Assembly: GCA_963762115.1 (NCBI GenBank)
Contig: CAVXJH010000003.1
Coordinates: forward strand, 480,001-544,000
DNA length: 64,000 nucleotides
Origin: Candidatus Babeliales bacterium
GTDB taxonomy: Bacteria; Babelota; Babeliae; Babelales; JANWKD01
Reading direction: 5' to 3'
This document shows positions 18,620 through 38,288 of this stretch, piece by piece; the first letter of the stretch is position 1, and each line of letters starts with the position of its first letter. The notes beneath the pieces were generated by a model. It was not told the DNA's origin. It was given only the letters and a program-made list of their open reading frames with translations, and made no database searches. The position numbers were made by a program, and so were the translations under genes.

Positions 18620-19180
18620 GACAGAAAACCCCAGGGTTTTAAACCTGGGGATGAATGTCATCAAATGCGCGAGCGAAGCAAAAATGTAAATTTTTGCGAA
18701 GTGAGGTTAGTTTTGTCATACTAATTGACATGACAAAGAAATATTGGCACGGAGCGCATACAACTCATAGGCATATGTATCATATAGTTTGGTTACCTAA
18801 ATATAGAAAAAAAGTATTAGAAGGCAAAGTTAAGAGCAGGTTAGAAGAACTTTTGCGAGAATGTGCGGAAATTAATGCATGGGAAATTCAAGAACTAAAT
18901 ATTCAGATAGACCATGTGCATCTTGTAATACAATTACCACCAAGTGTGAGTGTGAGCAAGGCCGTTCAATTACTCAAGGGAATTTCAAGTAAAATGCTCA
19001 GAGCTGAATTACCTGAAATAAAGAAATTTTTGTGGGGTAACGATTTTTGGGCAGATGGATATTTCTCTGAAACATTTGGACAATGTTCAGAAGAGACAAT
19101 TCTCAATTATGTTAGAAATCAATAAAAAGCTTTCATCTCGTGCTTCTAAATCCACGGCTTTTAAGCCGTGTGTTGTTTAA
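18620..19180 (+). mobile_element. IS200/IS605-family element (tnpA only)
   Basis: Left hairpin CCCCAGG-GTTTTAAA-CCTGGGG (18629-18650), right hairpin CACGGCTT-TT-AAGCCGTG (19153-19170) around a Y1 transposase; ends approximate. Confidence 0.85.
18730..19125 (+). CDS. tnpA: IS200-type HUH (Y1) transposase
   Basis: YHIVWLPKYR, DHVHL (HUH), KGISS, FWADGYF, YVRNQ; start set to ATG 18730. Confidence 0.92.
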   Translation: MTKKYWHGAHTTHRHMYHIVWLPKYRKKVLEGKVKSRLEELLRECAEINAWEIQELNIQIDHVHLVIQLPPSVSVSKAVQLLKGISSKMLRAELPEIKKFLWGNDFWADGYFSETFGQCSEETILNYVRNQ

Positions 19181-31779: not shown

Positions 31780-32631
31780 TTAAAAAACATCCAAATGCTT
31801 TAATAGTTTTTTTAGTTCTTTTGATCCAGCATAATGAATACAACGCAAATGTTTTTTACCAAGACGCATTGCTGCTTCAATATTGGCATACTCATCATCA
31901 ATATAAATAGTAAATTCAGTGTCCGGATTAATGCCAAACTCTTTAAAAGCCAATTCAAAAATTTGAGGATCTGGTTTAATTAAATATACTTTTCCTGAAA
32001 CAATAATGCCATCAAAATAGCCAAAAAGTAGTTTAAAATTTTTATCATTCTTAATTATTTCAAATGTTTTTTCATCAAAATTCGTCAAAAGAAAGATTTT
32101 ATGTAGCCGTTGACCAGAATAATTTTTTTGACTATGACATTTTTTTAGAATTTTTATTACTGAATGCTTAGGAATAGTTACCGCCGCCAAACGCGCAGGA
32201 GTAAACATGAAATTAGTAATGGCTGTCCACAATTTAGCTTTTCTTTTACCAATTGAAGATCTAACCTCTTTTATTTTTGCCAAGATGATTGCTTTTACTT
32301 CCTCGGGTGTTTTTAACCCTTGTAGCCAATCGCACATAATTTTAGGCAAAATTCTATCTTCATTAGAGGCCACTATTTGACCAGATCTATATGGTTCAAT
32401 CGTACAGAGAAAATCCATATATTCTTCTTCAATGCGCAAAGGATTAGAAAAAATATTGGCAAATATATTACCGATTCCTATTTCTGATAAAACACTTCTG
32501 GTTTGTTGTTCACCAAGAACACTGCCAAAGTCAAAAATTATATTTGTTGGCACGACAGCTAAAGAAGTTGCTTGAAAAAAAAGACATAACCCCATGAATA
32601 CAACTTTTGTTATTTTGAATCTAATAATCAT
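31780..32631 (-). CDS. HAD-family hydrolase with N-terminal signal peptide
   Basis: IIFDFGSVL, LLTN, KPDPQIF, YIDD. Confidence 0.8.
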   Translation of the reverse strand: MIIRFKITKVVFMGLCLFFQATSLAVVPTNIIFDFGSVLGEQQTRSVLSEIGIGNIFANIFSNPLRIEEEYMDFLCTIEPYRSGQIVASNEDRILPKIMCDWLQGLKTPEEVKAIILAKIKEVRSSIGKRKAKLWTAITNFMFTPARLAAVTIPKHSVIKILKKCHSQKNYSGQRLHKIFLLTNFDEKTFEIIKNDKNFKLLFGYFDGIIVSGKVYLIKPDPQIFELAFKEFGINPDTEFTIYIDDEYANIEAAMRLGKKHLRCIHYAGSKELKKLLKHLDVF

Positions 32632-32726
32632 TGATAATCCCTCTAAAAAAAATCCTACTTATAAGATCTACATGCTTACTCTTGAAAAATTATATCATAG
32701 TCAACCAAAAAAATCTTATCTCCATT

Positions 32727-33491
32727 TTATGCCATTAACCCATATTTCCGTAACAGCGATCCTAATTTTGAAGCTTTTAAACATAAAAGAGTCATCATAC
32801 CAAATTCTTCTGCCGTAGCCAGATTTTCTCTTTGATCATCAATATAACAACATTCTTGAGGGTCAAGTTCAAAGGCATCAATAAGATAATTAAAAATTTC
32901 AGGATCAGGTTTCAATAATTGCGTTTCATATGAGGTGACAATACCATCAAAAAGGTCAAAAAAGCTCTTATATTTTGGCTGAATTCCTTCATAGGTTTCC
33001 TGATCAATATTGGAAAGAATATATAATTTATAACTACTATTTTTCTTCAGTTTTTTTATCATATTTTCGACCGTAGAAACTGGCTTGAATATCTCAGCAC
33101 CTACAGCAGAATCTAACATTATATGGGCTAAACTAATCAAAGTTTTCTTTTGCCGTTTATCACTAAAAAAGTTTTGTCCGTCCAACATATCATAAAAAGC
33201 TAATACCCTGCCTAATGCTTCTTTGCTGGTGATTGTTCCTCGTTGCCACTCCAACATACACGATGGCAAGCGCACGCCTTTATAGGTAACTTTATCTTGA
33301 AACTCCCCTGGAATCTCTAAACGCATTTTATTCAATAAAGCCAAACTATCTTCAATAGGATCTTTACGATGTTTTAAATAATAAAAAATAATATTAACCA
33401 AACCTATTTTTCGTAATGCTTTTGCTTTATCAACAATAAATAAGACGCCAACTAAATCAAAGACAATCGTTTTAATAGGATTTTGCGACAT
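32727..33491 (-). CDS. HAD-family hydrolase (YihX-like)
   Basis: IVFDLVGVL, ILSN, KPDPEIF, YIDD. Confidence 0.85.
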   Translation of the reverse strand: MSQNPIKTIVFDLVGVLFIVDKAKALRKIGLVNIIFYYLKHRKDPIEDSLALLNKMRLEIPGEFQDKVTYKGVRLPSCMLEWQRGTITSKEALGRVLAFYDMLDGQNFFSDKRQKKTLISLAHIMLDSAVGAEIFKPVSTVENMIKKLKKNSSYKLYILSNIDQETYEGIQPKYKSFFDLFDGIVTSYETQLLKPDPEIFNYLIDAFELDPQECCYIDDQRENLATAEEFGMMTLLCLKASKLGSLLRKYGLMA

Positions 33492-33715: not shown

Positions 33716-33888
33716 AAATTCCATATATTATTGATACCATTTCCACATCTTTGTTTTTAGTATTTTTTAATATTATACGGCCCTATGCGGGCAGCACAAA
33801 GGTATTGCGTGCCCAATACCTTTGATACAAGGGCCTCCCCCTTCGCTTATCCACGCCTTCCGGCTTGGCAAGCTTGTATGTTAAATCA

Positions 33889-34092
33889 AAATGATTTTAA
33901 AGCTAAATTTTGTTAATTTATGATCAGTTGTTTTGAAATTAATTGTTTGAGAAGCTGATAGATCTCGTGTCAAGCTTGGTCTCAAAGGACCGTGTCATAG
34001 TTTGAGACTATCAGCTTATACAAAAATGACCTCGAACAATCACTAGAGACGTATCAAGTACATACGATCTCGCATGTCTACAAGCCAGAGGT
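33889..34092 (+). ncRNA. Predicted IS110 bridge RNA (target- and donor-binding loops)
   Basis: Stem 33952-33966/34004-34017 encloses TGTCAAGCT and CATAG (target guides); stem 34029-34033/34088-34092 encloses ACAATCACT and TACAAG (donor guides); 5' end inferred from junction promoter. Confidence 0.85.
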
Positions 34093-34096
34093 ATTT

Positions 34097-35038
34097 ATGA
34101 AAAATATATCAAAAGTATTTATAGGTGTCGATATTTCAAAAAACACTTTAGATGTTTATATCCATCCAATAGGAAAATCTTTAAAAGTATCAAACTCAGA
34201 AGTTGGAATAACGGAGATCATTAAAGAATTAGTTAAATATGATATCGAACAAATTGCATGCGAAGCAACTGGTGGGTATGAAAAATTACTTGCTCGAATA
34301 TTAAAAAAAAATTGTTATTATCTTTGGATCATCGATCCAAGAAGAATAAAAGGCTATATTGTTGCTAGTGGCTGCAAAAGCAAAACGGATAAAATTGATG
34401 CTCGAAAAATTGCTGAATTTGCTTCTAAAAATTCTCCTGATTATGAGATAATGAACAAAAGCGAAAATCAAGAAAAATTACAAGCTTTGGTCAATCGTAA
34501 AAATGACTTGGTAAAATTTTTAGTTGCCGAAAAAACAAGATCTAAACATCCATCTCATGCATTATATGCATCAAGTATAAAGAAATTTATCAAAATCTTA
34601 GAGTGCGAAATCAAATCAATTGATTTAAAGATACAAGATTTAATTCAGCAAGATGAAAAATTAAATACAAAATCAAAAATTTTGGAGTCAATTCCAGGAA
34701 TAGGCAAAACTTCAGCTGCAACATTATTATCATTCGTTCCTGAACTTGGTCAAATAAGTAATAAAAAAGTATCAGCACTCATTGGTGTTTGTCCTTATGA
34801 GAATGAAAGTGGAAGTTATAAGGGTAAAAAATTCATCAGAGGTGGAAGAACTATTCCAAGAAATATGCTTTATATGTGTGCATTAACAACTATTAAATAT
34901 CATCTCCCATTAAAGGAACTTTACGATCGTTTAATAACTTCTAAAAAACCTTTTAAAATAGCTATCGTAGCTATTATGCATAAACTTATTGTGATTGCTA
35001 ATTCTTTACTAAAAAAAGGTGAATTATGTAAAGCTTAA
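34097..35038 (+). CDS. IS110-family DEDD recombinase/transposase
   Basis: GVDISK, CEATGGY, KTDKIDA (DEDD), SIPGIG, NESG (catalytic Ser position), GGR. Confidence 0.95.
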   Translation: MKNISKVFIGVDISKNTLDVYIHPIGKSLKVSNSEVGITEIIKELVKYDIEQIACEATGGYEKLLARILKKNCYYLWIIDPRRIKGYIVASGCKSKTDKIDARKIAEFASKNSPDYEIMNKSENQEKLQALVNRKNDLVKFLVAEKTRSKHPSHALYASSIKKFIKILECEIKSIDLKIQDLIQQDEKLNTKSKILESIPGIGKTSAATLLSFVPELGQISNKKVSALIGVCPYENESGSYKGKKFIRGGRTIPRNMLYMCALTTIKYHLPLKELYDRLITSKKPFKIAIVAIMHKLIVIANSLLKKGELCKA

Positions 35039-35249
35039 TATTGTTTAGCTTTATTAAAAAATATTTGACTTTTAACACAATCACTATGGCGGACAGGCCA
35101 ACCCTTCGAAGCGTTAGCGTAGTAGGGCCGCGCGAAAACGTGAATTCTAAATCTTGATGCAGAATGCATCAAGATTTAGAATTCACATCGCCACTACCGG
35201 ACTAACCTATATTTATAAATTTTCTTTAGAATTTCATTTATTTGGGCAA

Positions 35250-35705: not shown

Positions 35706-38288
35706 GTGAAGAAACATATTATTTTCTTAACCATTTTTCTTATCATTGCCAATTCATTACCCATGTATTCAATGGAAACTGATGAGTTAGATATACGAGC
35801 AAAAGTTGAAAAATTAATAATCGAAGATGATCTTGATGCGCTCATTGATGATGTCACACCATTAATTTTTGCCGTTCAACAAAATGACCTTGATCTTATG
35901 CATCGACTTATTGCATTTGGTGCTAATGTTAATGCGCAAGCTTTAAATGGTTCAACGGCATTATTAGAAGCAGTAAAAATGTATGAGACAGCCAATAATT
36001 TCAATGTTATTAACTATTTGGTTAGTTGTGGTGCTCGAAATGATATTGAAGATGAAAAAGGGGAAACTGCTCTTTTTGTTGCTCGAGATTCTGGGTTTAA
36101 TGAAGTTGTAGAATTTTTGTTACCTCAAAACAATGTGAGTGTTCAAGGAAATGCAACACCATTGATACATGATGATTCGGAAGAAACAGAAAAACAATCT
36201 GATATAAAACAGACTGAAAAAGGAAAAGAAAAAGAGTCTCAAGAAGATAAAAAATCTAAAAAGACAAAAAAGCAAATTTTAGCAACTATGATTAAAAAAC
36301 CGATAAGGGTTATTGAATCAGGGGTAAAAGCTAGTTATTATGCTTCTCTTCATTATCTTCATCAAAAAAATGCTGATTATCAAAAAAGAGCATTAAGAAA
36401 ATATCTTAAAAATATAAAAAAACAATCGCAAATTAATGATAGATATTCACCATTGATAGCGGCAGTTAAAAATAATGATCTTGAAACGGTAATAACATTA
36501 CTTAGTGACCCAATGACAGATGTTAATATGAAAGATCATACAGAATGGACGGCCTTAGCAACTGCAATACATCAAGGTAATTTAAAAATTGTAGAAGTAT
36601 TGGTTAATCATAAAGGAATAATTCTTGATGCGCCAAGTTCTTCTAGATGCTGGACAGCATTAATGGAAGCTATTTTTACTCAAAATGTTGAAATTGTAAA
36701 ACTTTTAATAGAAAAAGGAGCCAATATCAATGCTGTAAACAATCTTGGAGTAACAGTTTTGATACTTGCTGTTTGGCATGGAACTCCTGAAATAATTGAC
36801 TTACTTTTAAGTTTTAATGCCGATGAAGATAAAAAATTAAATATTAATAATAAAAACACTTCAGGCTATACTGCTTTATTTTATGCAGCTCAAAGAAATA
36901 ATTTAGATTTGGTCAAGAAATTAATAAATCTTGGTGCAATTATTGAAAATGAATCTATGGAAACTAGCCCTCTAAATCCGATTCATAAAAGTAATAAAAA
37001 TACTAATCAAGAAATTAATAAAGAAATAGTAGAGTTTTTGAGAGAAGCATTTGAAGAAAGAAGTAAAAAAGAATCTGCTCAAAATATTTTTGAAGGAAAA
37101 ATTGAGGAAAAACAAGAAATTTCTCAAGCAAAACCTAAAAAAGTAATGCAATCTGAGCTTGCATCAAAGCTTTTACGTGCACTGAAAAATGGTGATCTTG
37201 CTACGATTCAAGATGCAATTGCAAAAGGTGTTGATATTAATCTTGCATTAAATGAATATGGTGACACTTTATTTATTCTTGCAATTGATAATAAAAAAAT
37301 TAATATTGCTCAATGGTTAATTGAAGCAGGTTCTGATATTAATAAAAGTAATAATGATGAGATAACACCATTGCTATTGGCTATGGCAAATGAAGAGCCT
37401 AAAATTATTCAATGGTTACTTGAAATTCCTGGTATTGATGCTAATAAACCTACTGATGAAGGAGTTACCCCATTGATAGCGGCTATAGCAAATAAAAAGT
37501 ATAAAATTGTTCAATGGTTACTTGAGACTCCTGGTATTGATGTTAATAAAGCCCATAGCAATGGAGTTACTCCATTGTTAAGGGCTATAGCAGATAAAGA
37601 GCATAAAATTGTTCAATGGTTACTTGAAACTCCTGGTATTGATGTTAATAAAGCCAATAATAATGGAGTAACTCCATTGCTATGGGCTATAGCAAATAAA
37701 GAGTTTAAAATTGTTCAGTGGTTACTTGAAACTCCTGGTATTGATGTTAATAAAGCCAATAATAATGGAGTAACTCCATTGCTATGGGCTATAGCAAATA
37801 AAGAGTTTAAAATTGTTCAGTGGTTACTTGAAACTCCTGGTATTGATGTTAATAAAGCTAATAATAATGGAGTAACTCCATTAATGAAAGCTATAGTTAT
37901 TGAAGAATTTGTGATTGCGCGCTTATTAATTACTAAGGGTGCAAATGTCAACGCTCTAAATAATTATGAAGCCTCAGCCCTAGTATGTGCTTTTTGTCAC
38001 ATAAACAATATTGGATTTTGCAATGACCATATATCTTTCATCTTCTTATTGATTGCACATGGGGCTGATGTAAACATTTCATGTATAATTAATGATAAAA
38101 AAACAACAATATTACAATGTGTGGTTGAAAATGGATGGATTAGCCTGCTCGAAAGTATTCTTAATTGCCAAACAGTTGATAAAATGAAAATTCGCGAATG
38201 GGCAATAGCAAGCAATAATAGAAAAGTAATCAATTTTTTAGATAAAAAAGAGGATTTAGATAAAAAAGAACGTTGTATAATAAGTTAA
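35706..38288 (+). CDS. Secreted ankyrin-repeat protein with C-terminal CaaX (860 aa)
   Basis: GTG start with AAGGAG; signal peptide ...PMYS-ME; many TPL..A repeats; ends KKERCIIS. Confidence 0.9.
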   Translation: MKKHIIFLTIFLIIANSLPMYSMETDELDIRAKVEKLIIEDDLDALIDDVTPLIFAVQQNDLDLMHRLIAFGANVNAQALNGSTALLEAVKMYETANNFNVINYLVSCGARNDIEDEKGETALFVARDSGFNEVVEFLLPQNNVSVQGNATPLIHDDSEETEKQSDIKQTEKGKEKESQEDKKSKKTKKQILATMIKKPIRVIESGVKASYYASLHYLHQKNADYQKRALRKYLKNIKKQSQINDRYSPLIAAVKNNDLETVITLLSDPMTDVNMKDHTEWTALATAIHQGNLKIVEVLVNHKGIILDAPSSSRCWTALMEAIFTQNVEIVKLLIEKGANINAVNNLGVTVLILAVWHGTPEIIDLLLSFNADEDKKLNINNKNTSGYTALFYAAQRNNLDLVKKLINLGAIIENESMETSPLNPIHKSNKNTNQEINKEIVEFLREAFEERSKKESAQNIFEGKIEEKQEISQAKPKKVMQSELASKLLRALKNGDLATIQDAIAKGVDINLALNEYGDTLFILAIDNKKINIAQWLIEAGSDINKSNNDEITPLLLAMANEEPKIIQWLLEIPGIDANKPTDEGVTPLIAAIANKKYKIVQWLLETPGIDVNKAHSNGVTPLLRAIADKEHKIVQWLLETPGIDVNKANNNGVTPLLWAIANKEFKIVQWLLETPGIDVNKANNNGVTPLLWAIANKEFKIVQWLLETPGIDVNKANNNGVTPLMKAIVIEEFVIARLLITKGANVNALNNYEASALVCAFCHINNIGFCNDHISFIFLLIAHGADVNISCIINDKKTTILQCVVENGWISLLESILNCQTVDKMKIREWAIASNNRKVINFLDKKEDLDKKERCIIS
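37401..37882 (+). repeat. 102-bp tandem repeat, about 4.7 copies (34-aa ankyrin unit)
   Basis: AAAATT(A/G)TTCA(A/G)TGGTTACTTGA at 37401, 37503, 37605, 37707, 37809. Confidence 0.95.

What the first reader, a model, noticed from the sequence alone, without database searches (positions are those of the whole stretch)
33873..35085. Intact IS110 bridge-RNA system with all four guides readable and matching its own donor and target
Seen: removing the IS restores target TGGCAAG-CT-ATGG; circularising it gives donor ACAATCA-CT-TGTA. The 222-bp left end folds into two stem-internal loop-hairpin domains. Domain 1 (stem 33952-66/34004-17, inner hairpin GGTC..GACC) holds TGTCAAGCT (33968-76; 8/9 to left target plus core) and CATAG (33996-34000; reverse complement of CTATG). 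Domain 2 (stem ACCTC/GAGGT, inner hairpin GAGACGTAT..ATACGATCTC) holds ACAATCACT (34036-44; 9/9 to left donor plus core) and TACAAG (34079-84; reverse complement of CTTGTA). Established: this is the bispecific bridge-RNA layout of IS621, which also uses a CT core, a DEDD domain and a catalytic Ser. Inference: a compact 313-aa programmable recombinase ortholog from a little-studied lineage.
Basis: partly seen in the sequence, partly recalled or inferred. Interest (0 to 1): 0.93.

Follow-up and report, generated by a model that had tools for sequence, protein, structure and literature searches.

The report
Intact IS110 bridge-RNA jumping element
This is a five-copy mobile element whose predicted guide RNA matches both its own ends and the repeat it sits in, so it likely moves by the RNA-guided mechanism already known from IS621: an ordinary new member of that family, with one unusual predicted fold that would hide one of its guides.

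Summary
Confirmed. An intact IS110-group element (DEDD/Ser recombinase, 313 aa; 222-nt left end) has 5 near-identical copies with identical ends in this genome. In 18 relatives the target guides change together with the flanks (right side 77 of 90 pairs against 35 permuted, 0 of 20,000), while donor and scaffold stay nearly fixed. Four copies fill all 4 copies of a hairpin repeat that match the right guide; 11 copies that mismatch it are empty. The fifth sits in an IS481-type gene and matches only the right guide; 3 empty copies of that gene show the target and exact ends. Refinements: the right target guide is likely 7 nt, the right donor guide likely bulged, and handshake bases and a junction promoter are present. 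No RNA or circle was seen. A new member of a known kind.

The parts
33844..33872 (+). Left arm of the target repeat (hairpin-forming intergenic repeat, 15 copies counted); its last 7 nt, 33866-33872, are the left target
   Evidence: empty copies fold as DNA hairpins, z -3.0, -0.9, -3.2
33873..33874 (+). Left CT core
33875..33885 (+). Right donor TGTAT (33875-79), -10 hexamer TATGTT (33877-82) of the predicted circle-junction promoter, right arm GTTAAA (33880-85) of a 6-bp subterminal inverted repeat
33892..33941 (+). Predicted 5' stem-loop, variable in sequence among relatives and weak alone (z -0.56 for 33875-33950)
33942..33951 (+). Conserved strand complementary to 34031-34040 (start of the donor loop and left donor guide); predicted competing helix
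33952..34017 (+). Target-binding loop: outer stem with invariant bulged A33962, invariant G33967, left target guide 33968-76, inner hairpin 33977-92, right target guide 33994-34000, handshake bases 34001-02
34029..34092 (+). Donor-binding loop: closing stem 34029-33/34088-92, left donor guide 34036-44, inner hairpin 34046-71 with invariant bulged A34067, right donor guide 34074-84, handshake bases 34085-86; GAGG 34088-91 is also the likely ribosome-binding site
34097..35038 (+). IS110 recombinase, 313 aa; D12, E56, D98, D101 and S238-G239
35039..35083 (+). Right end: -35 hexamer TTGACT (35065-70), left arm TTTAAC (35071-76) of the inverted repeat, left donor ACAATCA (35077-83)
35084..35085 (+). 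Right CT core
35086..35098 (+). Right arm of the target repeat; 35086-90 (ATGGC) is the right target

Best explanation
This is an intact five-copy IS110-group insertion sequence that likely moves as IS621 does: its circular form would join the two ends into a promoter, the left end would give a bridge RNA, and the DEDD/Ser recombinase would use the RNA's two loops to pair its own junction with a genomic hairpin repeat and recombine them at CT. Shown: intact gene, common ends, single-core insertion, guide-to-DNA complementarity and its covariation in relatives. Inferred: circle, transcript, catalysis. In detail the target is read as 7 nt + CT + 5 nt, with the right guide and the handshake base weighing more than the far-left positions; that would explain why only the ATG version of the repeat is filled and why one copy sits at a right-half-only site.
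For: Protein: PF01548 + PF02371 above cut-off; NF033542 190 bits against cut-off 140; only PDB matches are IS621 and ISCro4, E 1e-32, aligned over residues 8-308; D12, E56, D98, D101, S238, G239 invariant in the 54 aligned proteins. Ends. Guides against flanks in 18 of 21 distinct elements (those with both ends, protein identity 57-100%): left 77 of 126 Watson-Crick pairs (permuted mean 45.3), right 77 of 90 (34.9), 0 of 20,000 each; without this element and collapsed to 12 distinct right guides 53 of 84 (31.5) and 52 of 60 (22.2), 0 of 20,000. Handshake: donor-loop base pairs with target position 7 in 17 of 18 (C-G, G-C and U-A all occur; 22 of 20,000 permutations); target-loop base pairs with donor position 7 in 17 of 18 (429 of 20,000). 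Fold: 13 of 33 pairs with two-sided change, 0 of 500 shuffles. Three A..G pairs five bases apart are invariant in 20 of 20, as the flipped A and syn G in IS621 (PMC11208158, section 7). Junction promoter TTGACT-17-TATGTT, -35 exact in 17 of 20. Repeat census 4 of 4 against 0 of 11, Fisher p 7e-4.
Against: No transcript or circle was observed; every step after DNA anatomy is inferred. The fifth copy matches the left guide at 1 of 7 positions plus one wobble; 6 of 24 sites in the family have a fully paired right side but at most 3 Watson-Crick pairs on the left, looser than the 0-2 mismatches reported for most IS110 (PMC11208160, section 7). The usual target has a U-C mismatch at position 3. The donor loop's closing stem has no two-sided change and is predicted open in the full left end. 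The fourth A..G pair of IS621 (A67/G72) has no A at the matching place (33987 is G; A in 5 of 20). The second target-loop handshake base would pair with the target, not the donor. Relatives are kin, so permutation counts overstate significance; ends in relatives were found with motifs from this element, so end and -10 conservation is partly by construction.
Confidence: 0.9

Rival explanations
1. The working RNA is not one full-length bridge: the transcript is processed (or used in pieces, as the short seekRNA of ISEc21), because only a form that starts near 33952 can close the donor loop.
For: Donor-loop closing probability 0.00-0.16 for RNAs that include 33942-51 against 0.64-0.95 for those starting at 33952. 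A 74-nt seekRNA co-purifies with the ISEc21 transposase (PMC11187229, passages). Split loops work for IS621 (PMC13626964, parts 1-2).
Against: Free-RNA energies ignore protein binding, which could supply the 4.2 kcal/mol difference. Extended IS621 transcripts still recombine (PMC13626964, part 2). It changes the RNA form, not the guide logic.
Confidence: 0.2
2. Target choice is made mainly by the protein reading the hairpin of the repeat; guide matches are secondary.
For: The target's left arm folds as a DNA hairpin; a target stem-loop is a second determinant for ISPpu10 (10.64898/2026.03.19.712850, abstract). Left-guide matches are loose.
Against: The 11 empty repeat copies share the left-arm sequence (9 with the identical left 7-mer) and differ at the right target; the fifth copy has no such repeat; guides covary with flanks across 14 distinct right guides. 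A supporting role for the hairpin is not excluded.
Confidence: 0.05
3. The element is a recently dead or passively duplicated copy that spread with its repeat.
For: No circle junction in the assembly and no direct sign of activity.
Against: All 5 frames are open with 0-1 base difference; the repeat arms around the four copies differ from one another and the fifth lies in an unrelated element, which points to separate insertions.
Confidence: 0.05

Closest known systems
IS621 (E. coli; PDB 8WT6) and ISCro4/IS622 (PDB 9T56), IS110 group bridge recombinases
   Same: DEDD + Ser recombinase, CT core, RNA in the long left end, 5' stem-loop then target loop then donor loop, guide order and strands, handshake bases, A..G scaffold marks, junction promoter, repeat target.
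   Different: Distant protein (E 1e-32; 313 against 326 aa); natural right target guide likely 7 nt rather than 4; right donor guide with a likely 4-nt bulge (2 nt in IS621 by the paper's 9-for-7 count); 6-bp subterminal repeat against 2-3 bp; a conserved strand complementary to the left donor guide, which I could not look for in IS621 (no IS621 locus was fetched).
ISEc21 seekRNA system (IS110 group, PMC11187229)
   Same: Upstream non-coding region, junction promoter, bottom-strand match 5' of top-strand match; natural retargeting seen in a relative (ISMch6).
   Different: Described with a short 74-nt RNA; here both loops are readable and retargeting is seen across 21 elements.
ISPpu9 and ISPpu10 (Pseudomonas putida)
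   Same: Multi-copy IS110 in intergenic repeats; in ISPpu9 the 5' UTR structure likely buries the ribosome-binding site (PMC8450116); in ISPpu10 a target stem-loop adds specificity.
   Different: ISPpu9 is opened by a separate antisense RNA; here the competing strand lies in the same RNA, and release of the ribosome site is not supported by the folding run.
IS1111 group
   Same: Same recombinase domains; subterminal inverted repeats 7 nt inside the left of the junction.
   Different: IS1111 elements carry the RNA in the right end and repeats of 7-17 bp; here the left end is long (222 against 45 nt) and the repeat is 6 bp (3-9 in the clade).

Membership tests
IS110 family recombinase | PF01548 DEDD domain followed by PF02371 with catalytic Ser | tested here: met
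IS110 family element | Ends defined by a short core; insertion without target duplication beyond the core | tested here: met
   5 of 5 copies; 3 empty sites with one CT
IS110 group (IS621-like) | Long non-coding left end carrying the RNA; short right end | tested here: met
   222 nt against 45 nt
IS110 group (IS621-like) | Subterminal repeat absent or 2-3 bp | tested here: inconclusive
   6 bp here, 3-9 bp in 20 elements: between the two groups, in A+T-rich promoter sequence; no chance control run
Bridge RNA | Two stem-internal loop-hairpin domains | tested here: met
   13 of 33 pairs with two-sided change, 0 of 500; the closing stem of domain 2 is conserved but uncompensated and predicted to be out-competed in free full-length RNA
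Bridge RNA | Left/right target guides complementary to bottom/top strand of the target and covarying with it | tested here: met
Bridge RNA | Left/right donor guides complementary to the circle junction | tested here: met
   9 of 9 here; left guide follows donor changes in L037, L042, L120, imperfect in L116 and L045; right side does not vary, so no covariation test
Bridge RNA | Handshake bases pairing with position 7 of the opposite DNA | tested here: met
   17 of 18 for each loop
Bridge RNA | Promoter formed at the joined ends | tested here: met
   consensus match only: TTGACT-17-TATGTT
Bridge RNA | Match to the published IS621 covariance model | not testable with these tools
   Rfam gave no match in the left end; my own model finds the left end in 15 of 34 more distant loci and once in the window
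Bridge RNA | RNA expressed, bound by the recombinase, and reprogrammable; circle formed | not testable with these tools
   no RNA holder listed; contigs only
IS1111 group | RNA in the right end and 7-17 bp subterminal repeats | tested here: not met

The most novel reading that the evidence does not exclude
This clade's bridge RNA carries a built-in latch: a conserved strand just upstream of the target loop pairs with the left donor guide, so the free or read-through transcript has no donor loop and cannot drive donor-only (donor-donor) excision or insertion until recombinase binding or processing closes the loop, whose closing strand is also the ribosome-binding site of the recombinase. One RNA would then switch between message and guide. 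With its natural 7-nt right guide and right-dominated target reading, the clade would be a regulatory variant not described in the papers I searched.
Probability: 0.3. Interest if true: 0.7.

Novelty: new member of a known kind. Interest (0 to 1): 0.45.

Why it matters
The mechanism is known, so the element itself is ordinary. Its value is as natural data: a scaffold retargeted to 14 different right guides, a genome in which one base of a repeat separates filled from empty sites, and a right-half-only insertion, a class that a recent re-analysis had to exclude because IS621's right guide is only 4 bp (10.64898/2026.08.31.748434, passages). As a tool candidate it is one of many: 18 of 72 orthologues showed activity in human cells by PCR and 1 by luciferase (10.1101/2025.05.14.653916, passages). 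If the latch is real it bears on how these elements limit donor-donor events and on where to trim the RNA when testing this clade.

Tried and rejected
Rfam: no family in the left end. Sequencing runs: no RNA holder listed; three DNA contig sets showed no joint that goes back from right end to left end, which is no evidence either way, and run X1 may be the source sample. A contig in X1 skips exactly 1211 nt at the fifth site (28+2 letters on the short side, under the tool's bar of 31); I first read it as an empty allele of that locus and rejected this when 3 empty copies of the host IS481-type gene turned up in the genome. The idea that the competing helix frees the ribosome-binding site was not supported: with 34 or more coding bases attached, 34089-92 stay mostly paired. 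One search used a wrong register for that helix and was rerun. The helix was not evident by eye in relatives of about 40% identity (not scored). No IS621 locus appeared among the 85 plasmid rows listed, so no direct RNA comparison. A Y1 transposase search gave IS200/IS605-type genes, below the REP-transposase cut-off, so the mover of the target repeat is unknown. The linear element has only weak promoter matches upstream of the RNA (9 of 12; 17 sites in the region against 11 by chance). Earlier scan findings: 3 look-ups, nothing. Literature: no listed paper paired IS110 with Dependentiae/Babeliales/TM6 (0 IS110 occurrences in the 20 listed of 108); searches for bridge RNA with ribosome-site or alternative-structure terms listed nothing on this helix; five terms were absent from 7 supplementary files of PMC11208160, one picture-only file unread. 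bioRxiv supplements (ortholog lists) were closed, so the clade may be in them.

Full report
Observation. The frame 34097-35038 encodes 313 aa with PF01548 and PF02371 above cut-off and NCBIfam 'IS110 family RNA-guided transposase' at 190 bits, cut-off 140. Its only two matches among solved structures are IS621 and ISCro4, E about 1e-32. D12, E56, D98, D101 and S238-G239 align with D11, E60, D102, D105 and S241-G242 of IS621 (residue roles from PMC11208158, passages) and are invariant in the 54 proteins aligned, 53 of the 120 listed relatives plus the query. In 20,000 dinucleotide shuffles of the left end all four guide matches never occurred together.

Ends and copies. The genome (1.53 Mb, 7 contigs) holds 5 copies, each 1211 nt plus one core, three identical and two with one base changed, all with the same ends; a family search finds no other IS110. 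Four lie in the same intergenic repeat with target TGGCAAG-CT-ATGG. The fifth lies at GCCTTTG-CT-ATGA inside an IS481-type transposase gene (each piece below the family cut-off), of which 3 uninterrupted copies exist in the genome and show the empty site with a single CT. This fixes both ends without any model.

A natural specificity test. A fuzzy census found 15 copies of the repeat (thresholds chosen by me after seeing the repeat). The 4 with ATG after the core are all filled; the 11 others all have C at the second position after the core, which would face A33997 of the right guide, and all are empty; 9 of the 11 have the identical left 7-mer (Fisher p 7e-4). The fifth site belongs to a class of 78 empty sites with G at position 7 and a paired right side; it is a rare event, 1 of 4 copies of its host gene.

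Relatives. A protein search gave 1097 relatives at E<=1e-30; 19 of 261 genomes of the phylum carry one at E<=1e-40. The closest loci with titles are Candidatus Babeliales or Dependentiae bins, others are titled only as uncultured bacteria; I infer a Babelota host. Of 192 loci held, those with at least 55% protein identity collapsed to 28 sites of 21 elements, 18 with both ends readable. Scaffold and donor are nearly constant while the target guides take 20 left and 14 right forms. Guides pair with their own flanks far above permutation: left 77 of 126 against 45.3, right 77 of 90 against 34.9, 0 of 20,000 each, with this element entered by its off-target site; the result holds without this element and after collapsing to 12 distinct right guides. 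Kinship inflates these counts, but the bases change in all four letters. The left side is looser: 45 of 168 positions unpaired against 8 of 120 on the right, and 6 of 24 sites are right-complete with at most 3 left pairs; my choice of register for 9- and 10-nt left loops may add to the far-left mismatches.

RNA anatomy. A33962/G33967, A34029/G34034 and A34067/G34072 are invariant and five apart, as A43/G48, A116/G121 and A150/G155 in IS621 (PMC11208158, section 7); the fourth pair does not map. The joined ends give TTGACT-17-TATGTT, with the -35 exact in 17 of 20, and a 6-bp inverted repeat around the 14-nt donor, 3-9 bp in the clade. A model built from the alignment finds the left end in 15 of 34 more distant loci and only once in the window.

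Against the simple picture. Folding 33889-34096 gives a 10-bp helix 33942-51/34031-40 in place of the donor loop's closing stem. It has probability 0.79-0.97 in all 12 transcripts tested that contain the strand; the closing stem reaches 0.64-0.95 only in the 3 that start at 33952. In 20 elements the helix is at least 7 bp in 17 (mean 7.9 against 5.1 shuffled) and has probability above 0.5 in 13. Its changes are mostly to G-U pairs, with one two-sided change shared by the two elements whose donor differs, but the score is weak, 26 of 500, and this element itself breaks that outer pair. The closing stem is conserved but uncompensated, and its 3' strand is GAGG a few bases before the start codon, so translation alone could explain part of its conservation. 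The fold does not show the ribosome site being freed. I keep a latch on the donor guide as a lead at 0.3. Precedent for 5' UTR control in the family is ISPpu9 (PMC8450116, abstract and passages); donor-loop-only reactions are documented (PMC13626964, parts 1-2 of 8; 10.64898/2026.08.31.748434, part 1 and passages).

Mechanism. Likely cycle, by analogy: low read-through yields RNA and protein; the ends are joined into a circle (cut or copy is unsettled even for IS621); the junction promoter makes bridge RNA; the target loop reads 7+CT+5 in the repeat, the donor loop reads the junction; top strands exchange 3' of CT helped by the handshake bases. Anatomy, ends and covariation are shown; all biochemical steps are inferred. 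No RNA run was listed and no circle joint seen, which is no evidence.

What I read: PMC11208160 abstract, sections 5, 6, 7, 12, passages, a term search of 7 supplementary files; PMC11208158 passages and section 7; PMC13626964 parts 1-2; 10.64898/2026.08.31.748434 part 1 and passages; 10.1101/2025.05.14.653916, PMC8450116, PMC11187229 passages; 10.64898/2026.03.19.712850 abstract and outline. bioRxiv supplements were closed; their ortholog tables may already hold this clade.

Verdict. Observation confirmed, interpretation supported, novelty overstated. New member of a known kind; interest 0.45, carried by the natural retargeting series, the filled/empty repeat test, the right-half insertion and the possible latch.

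Noticed in passing
G000:C6:253967-255177 (L026): The fifth copy interrupts an IS481-type transposase gene (open stretch of about 337 codons); three uninterrupted copies lie at C3:198352, C3:348397 and C5:85599.
   Followed up: yes
window 33773-33835: A second repeat family abuts the target repeat; 17 other blastn hits in the genome. Its origin is unknown.
   Followed up: no
window 35140-35188: A long near-perfect palindrome just right of the element; it draws only sub-threshold miRNA-type Rfam hits.
   Followed up: no
window 18763-19122: IS200/IS605-type Y1 transposase, one of 5 matches in the genome, 4 with the same score.
   Followed up: partly
window 22038, 47716, 47994: Three empty copies of the target repeat inside the window, each with C at the second base after the core.
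   Followed up: yes
run X3 laid on window 33778-34178: A close relative has G33969T in the left guide and A33997G in the right guide (one contig, depth 4); the new right guide would fit the ACG repeat version that is empty here. Its right target could not be read.
   Followed up: partly
L036, about 240 nt upstream of the gene: Tandem duplication of the first 18 nt or so of the left end.
   Followed up: no
L116 left end and junctions: Donor guide and core look shifted by one base, the one element that fails the donor-loop handshake.
   Followed up: no
L031-L034: One genome carries two elements of this clade (76% and 71% identical to the window protein) with the same donor but different target guides and targets, so cross-mobilisation is possible.
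   Followed up: partly
window 31780-33491 and 35706-38288: The element is intergenic between two HAD-type hydrolase genes on the minus strand and an 860-aa ankyrin-repeat gene on the plus strand.
   Followed up: no
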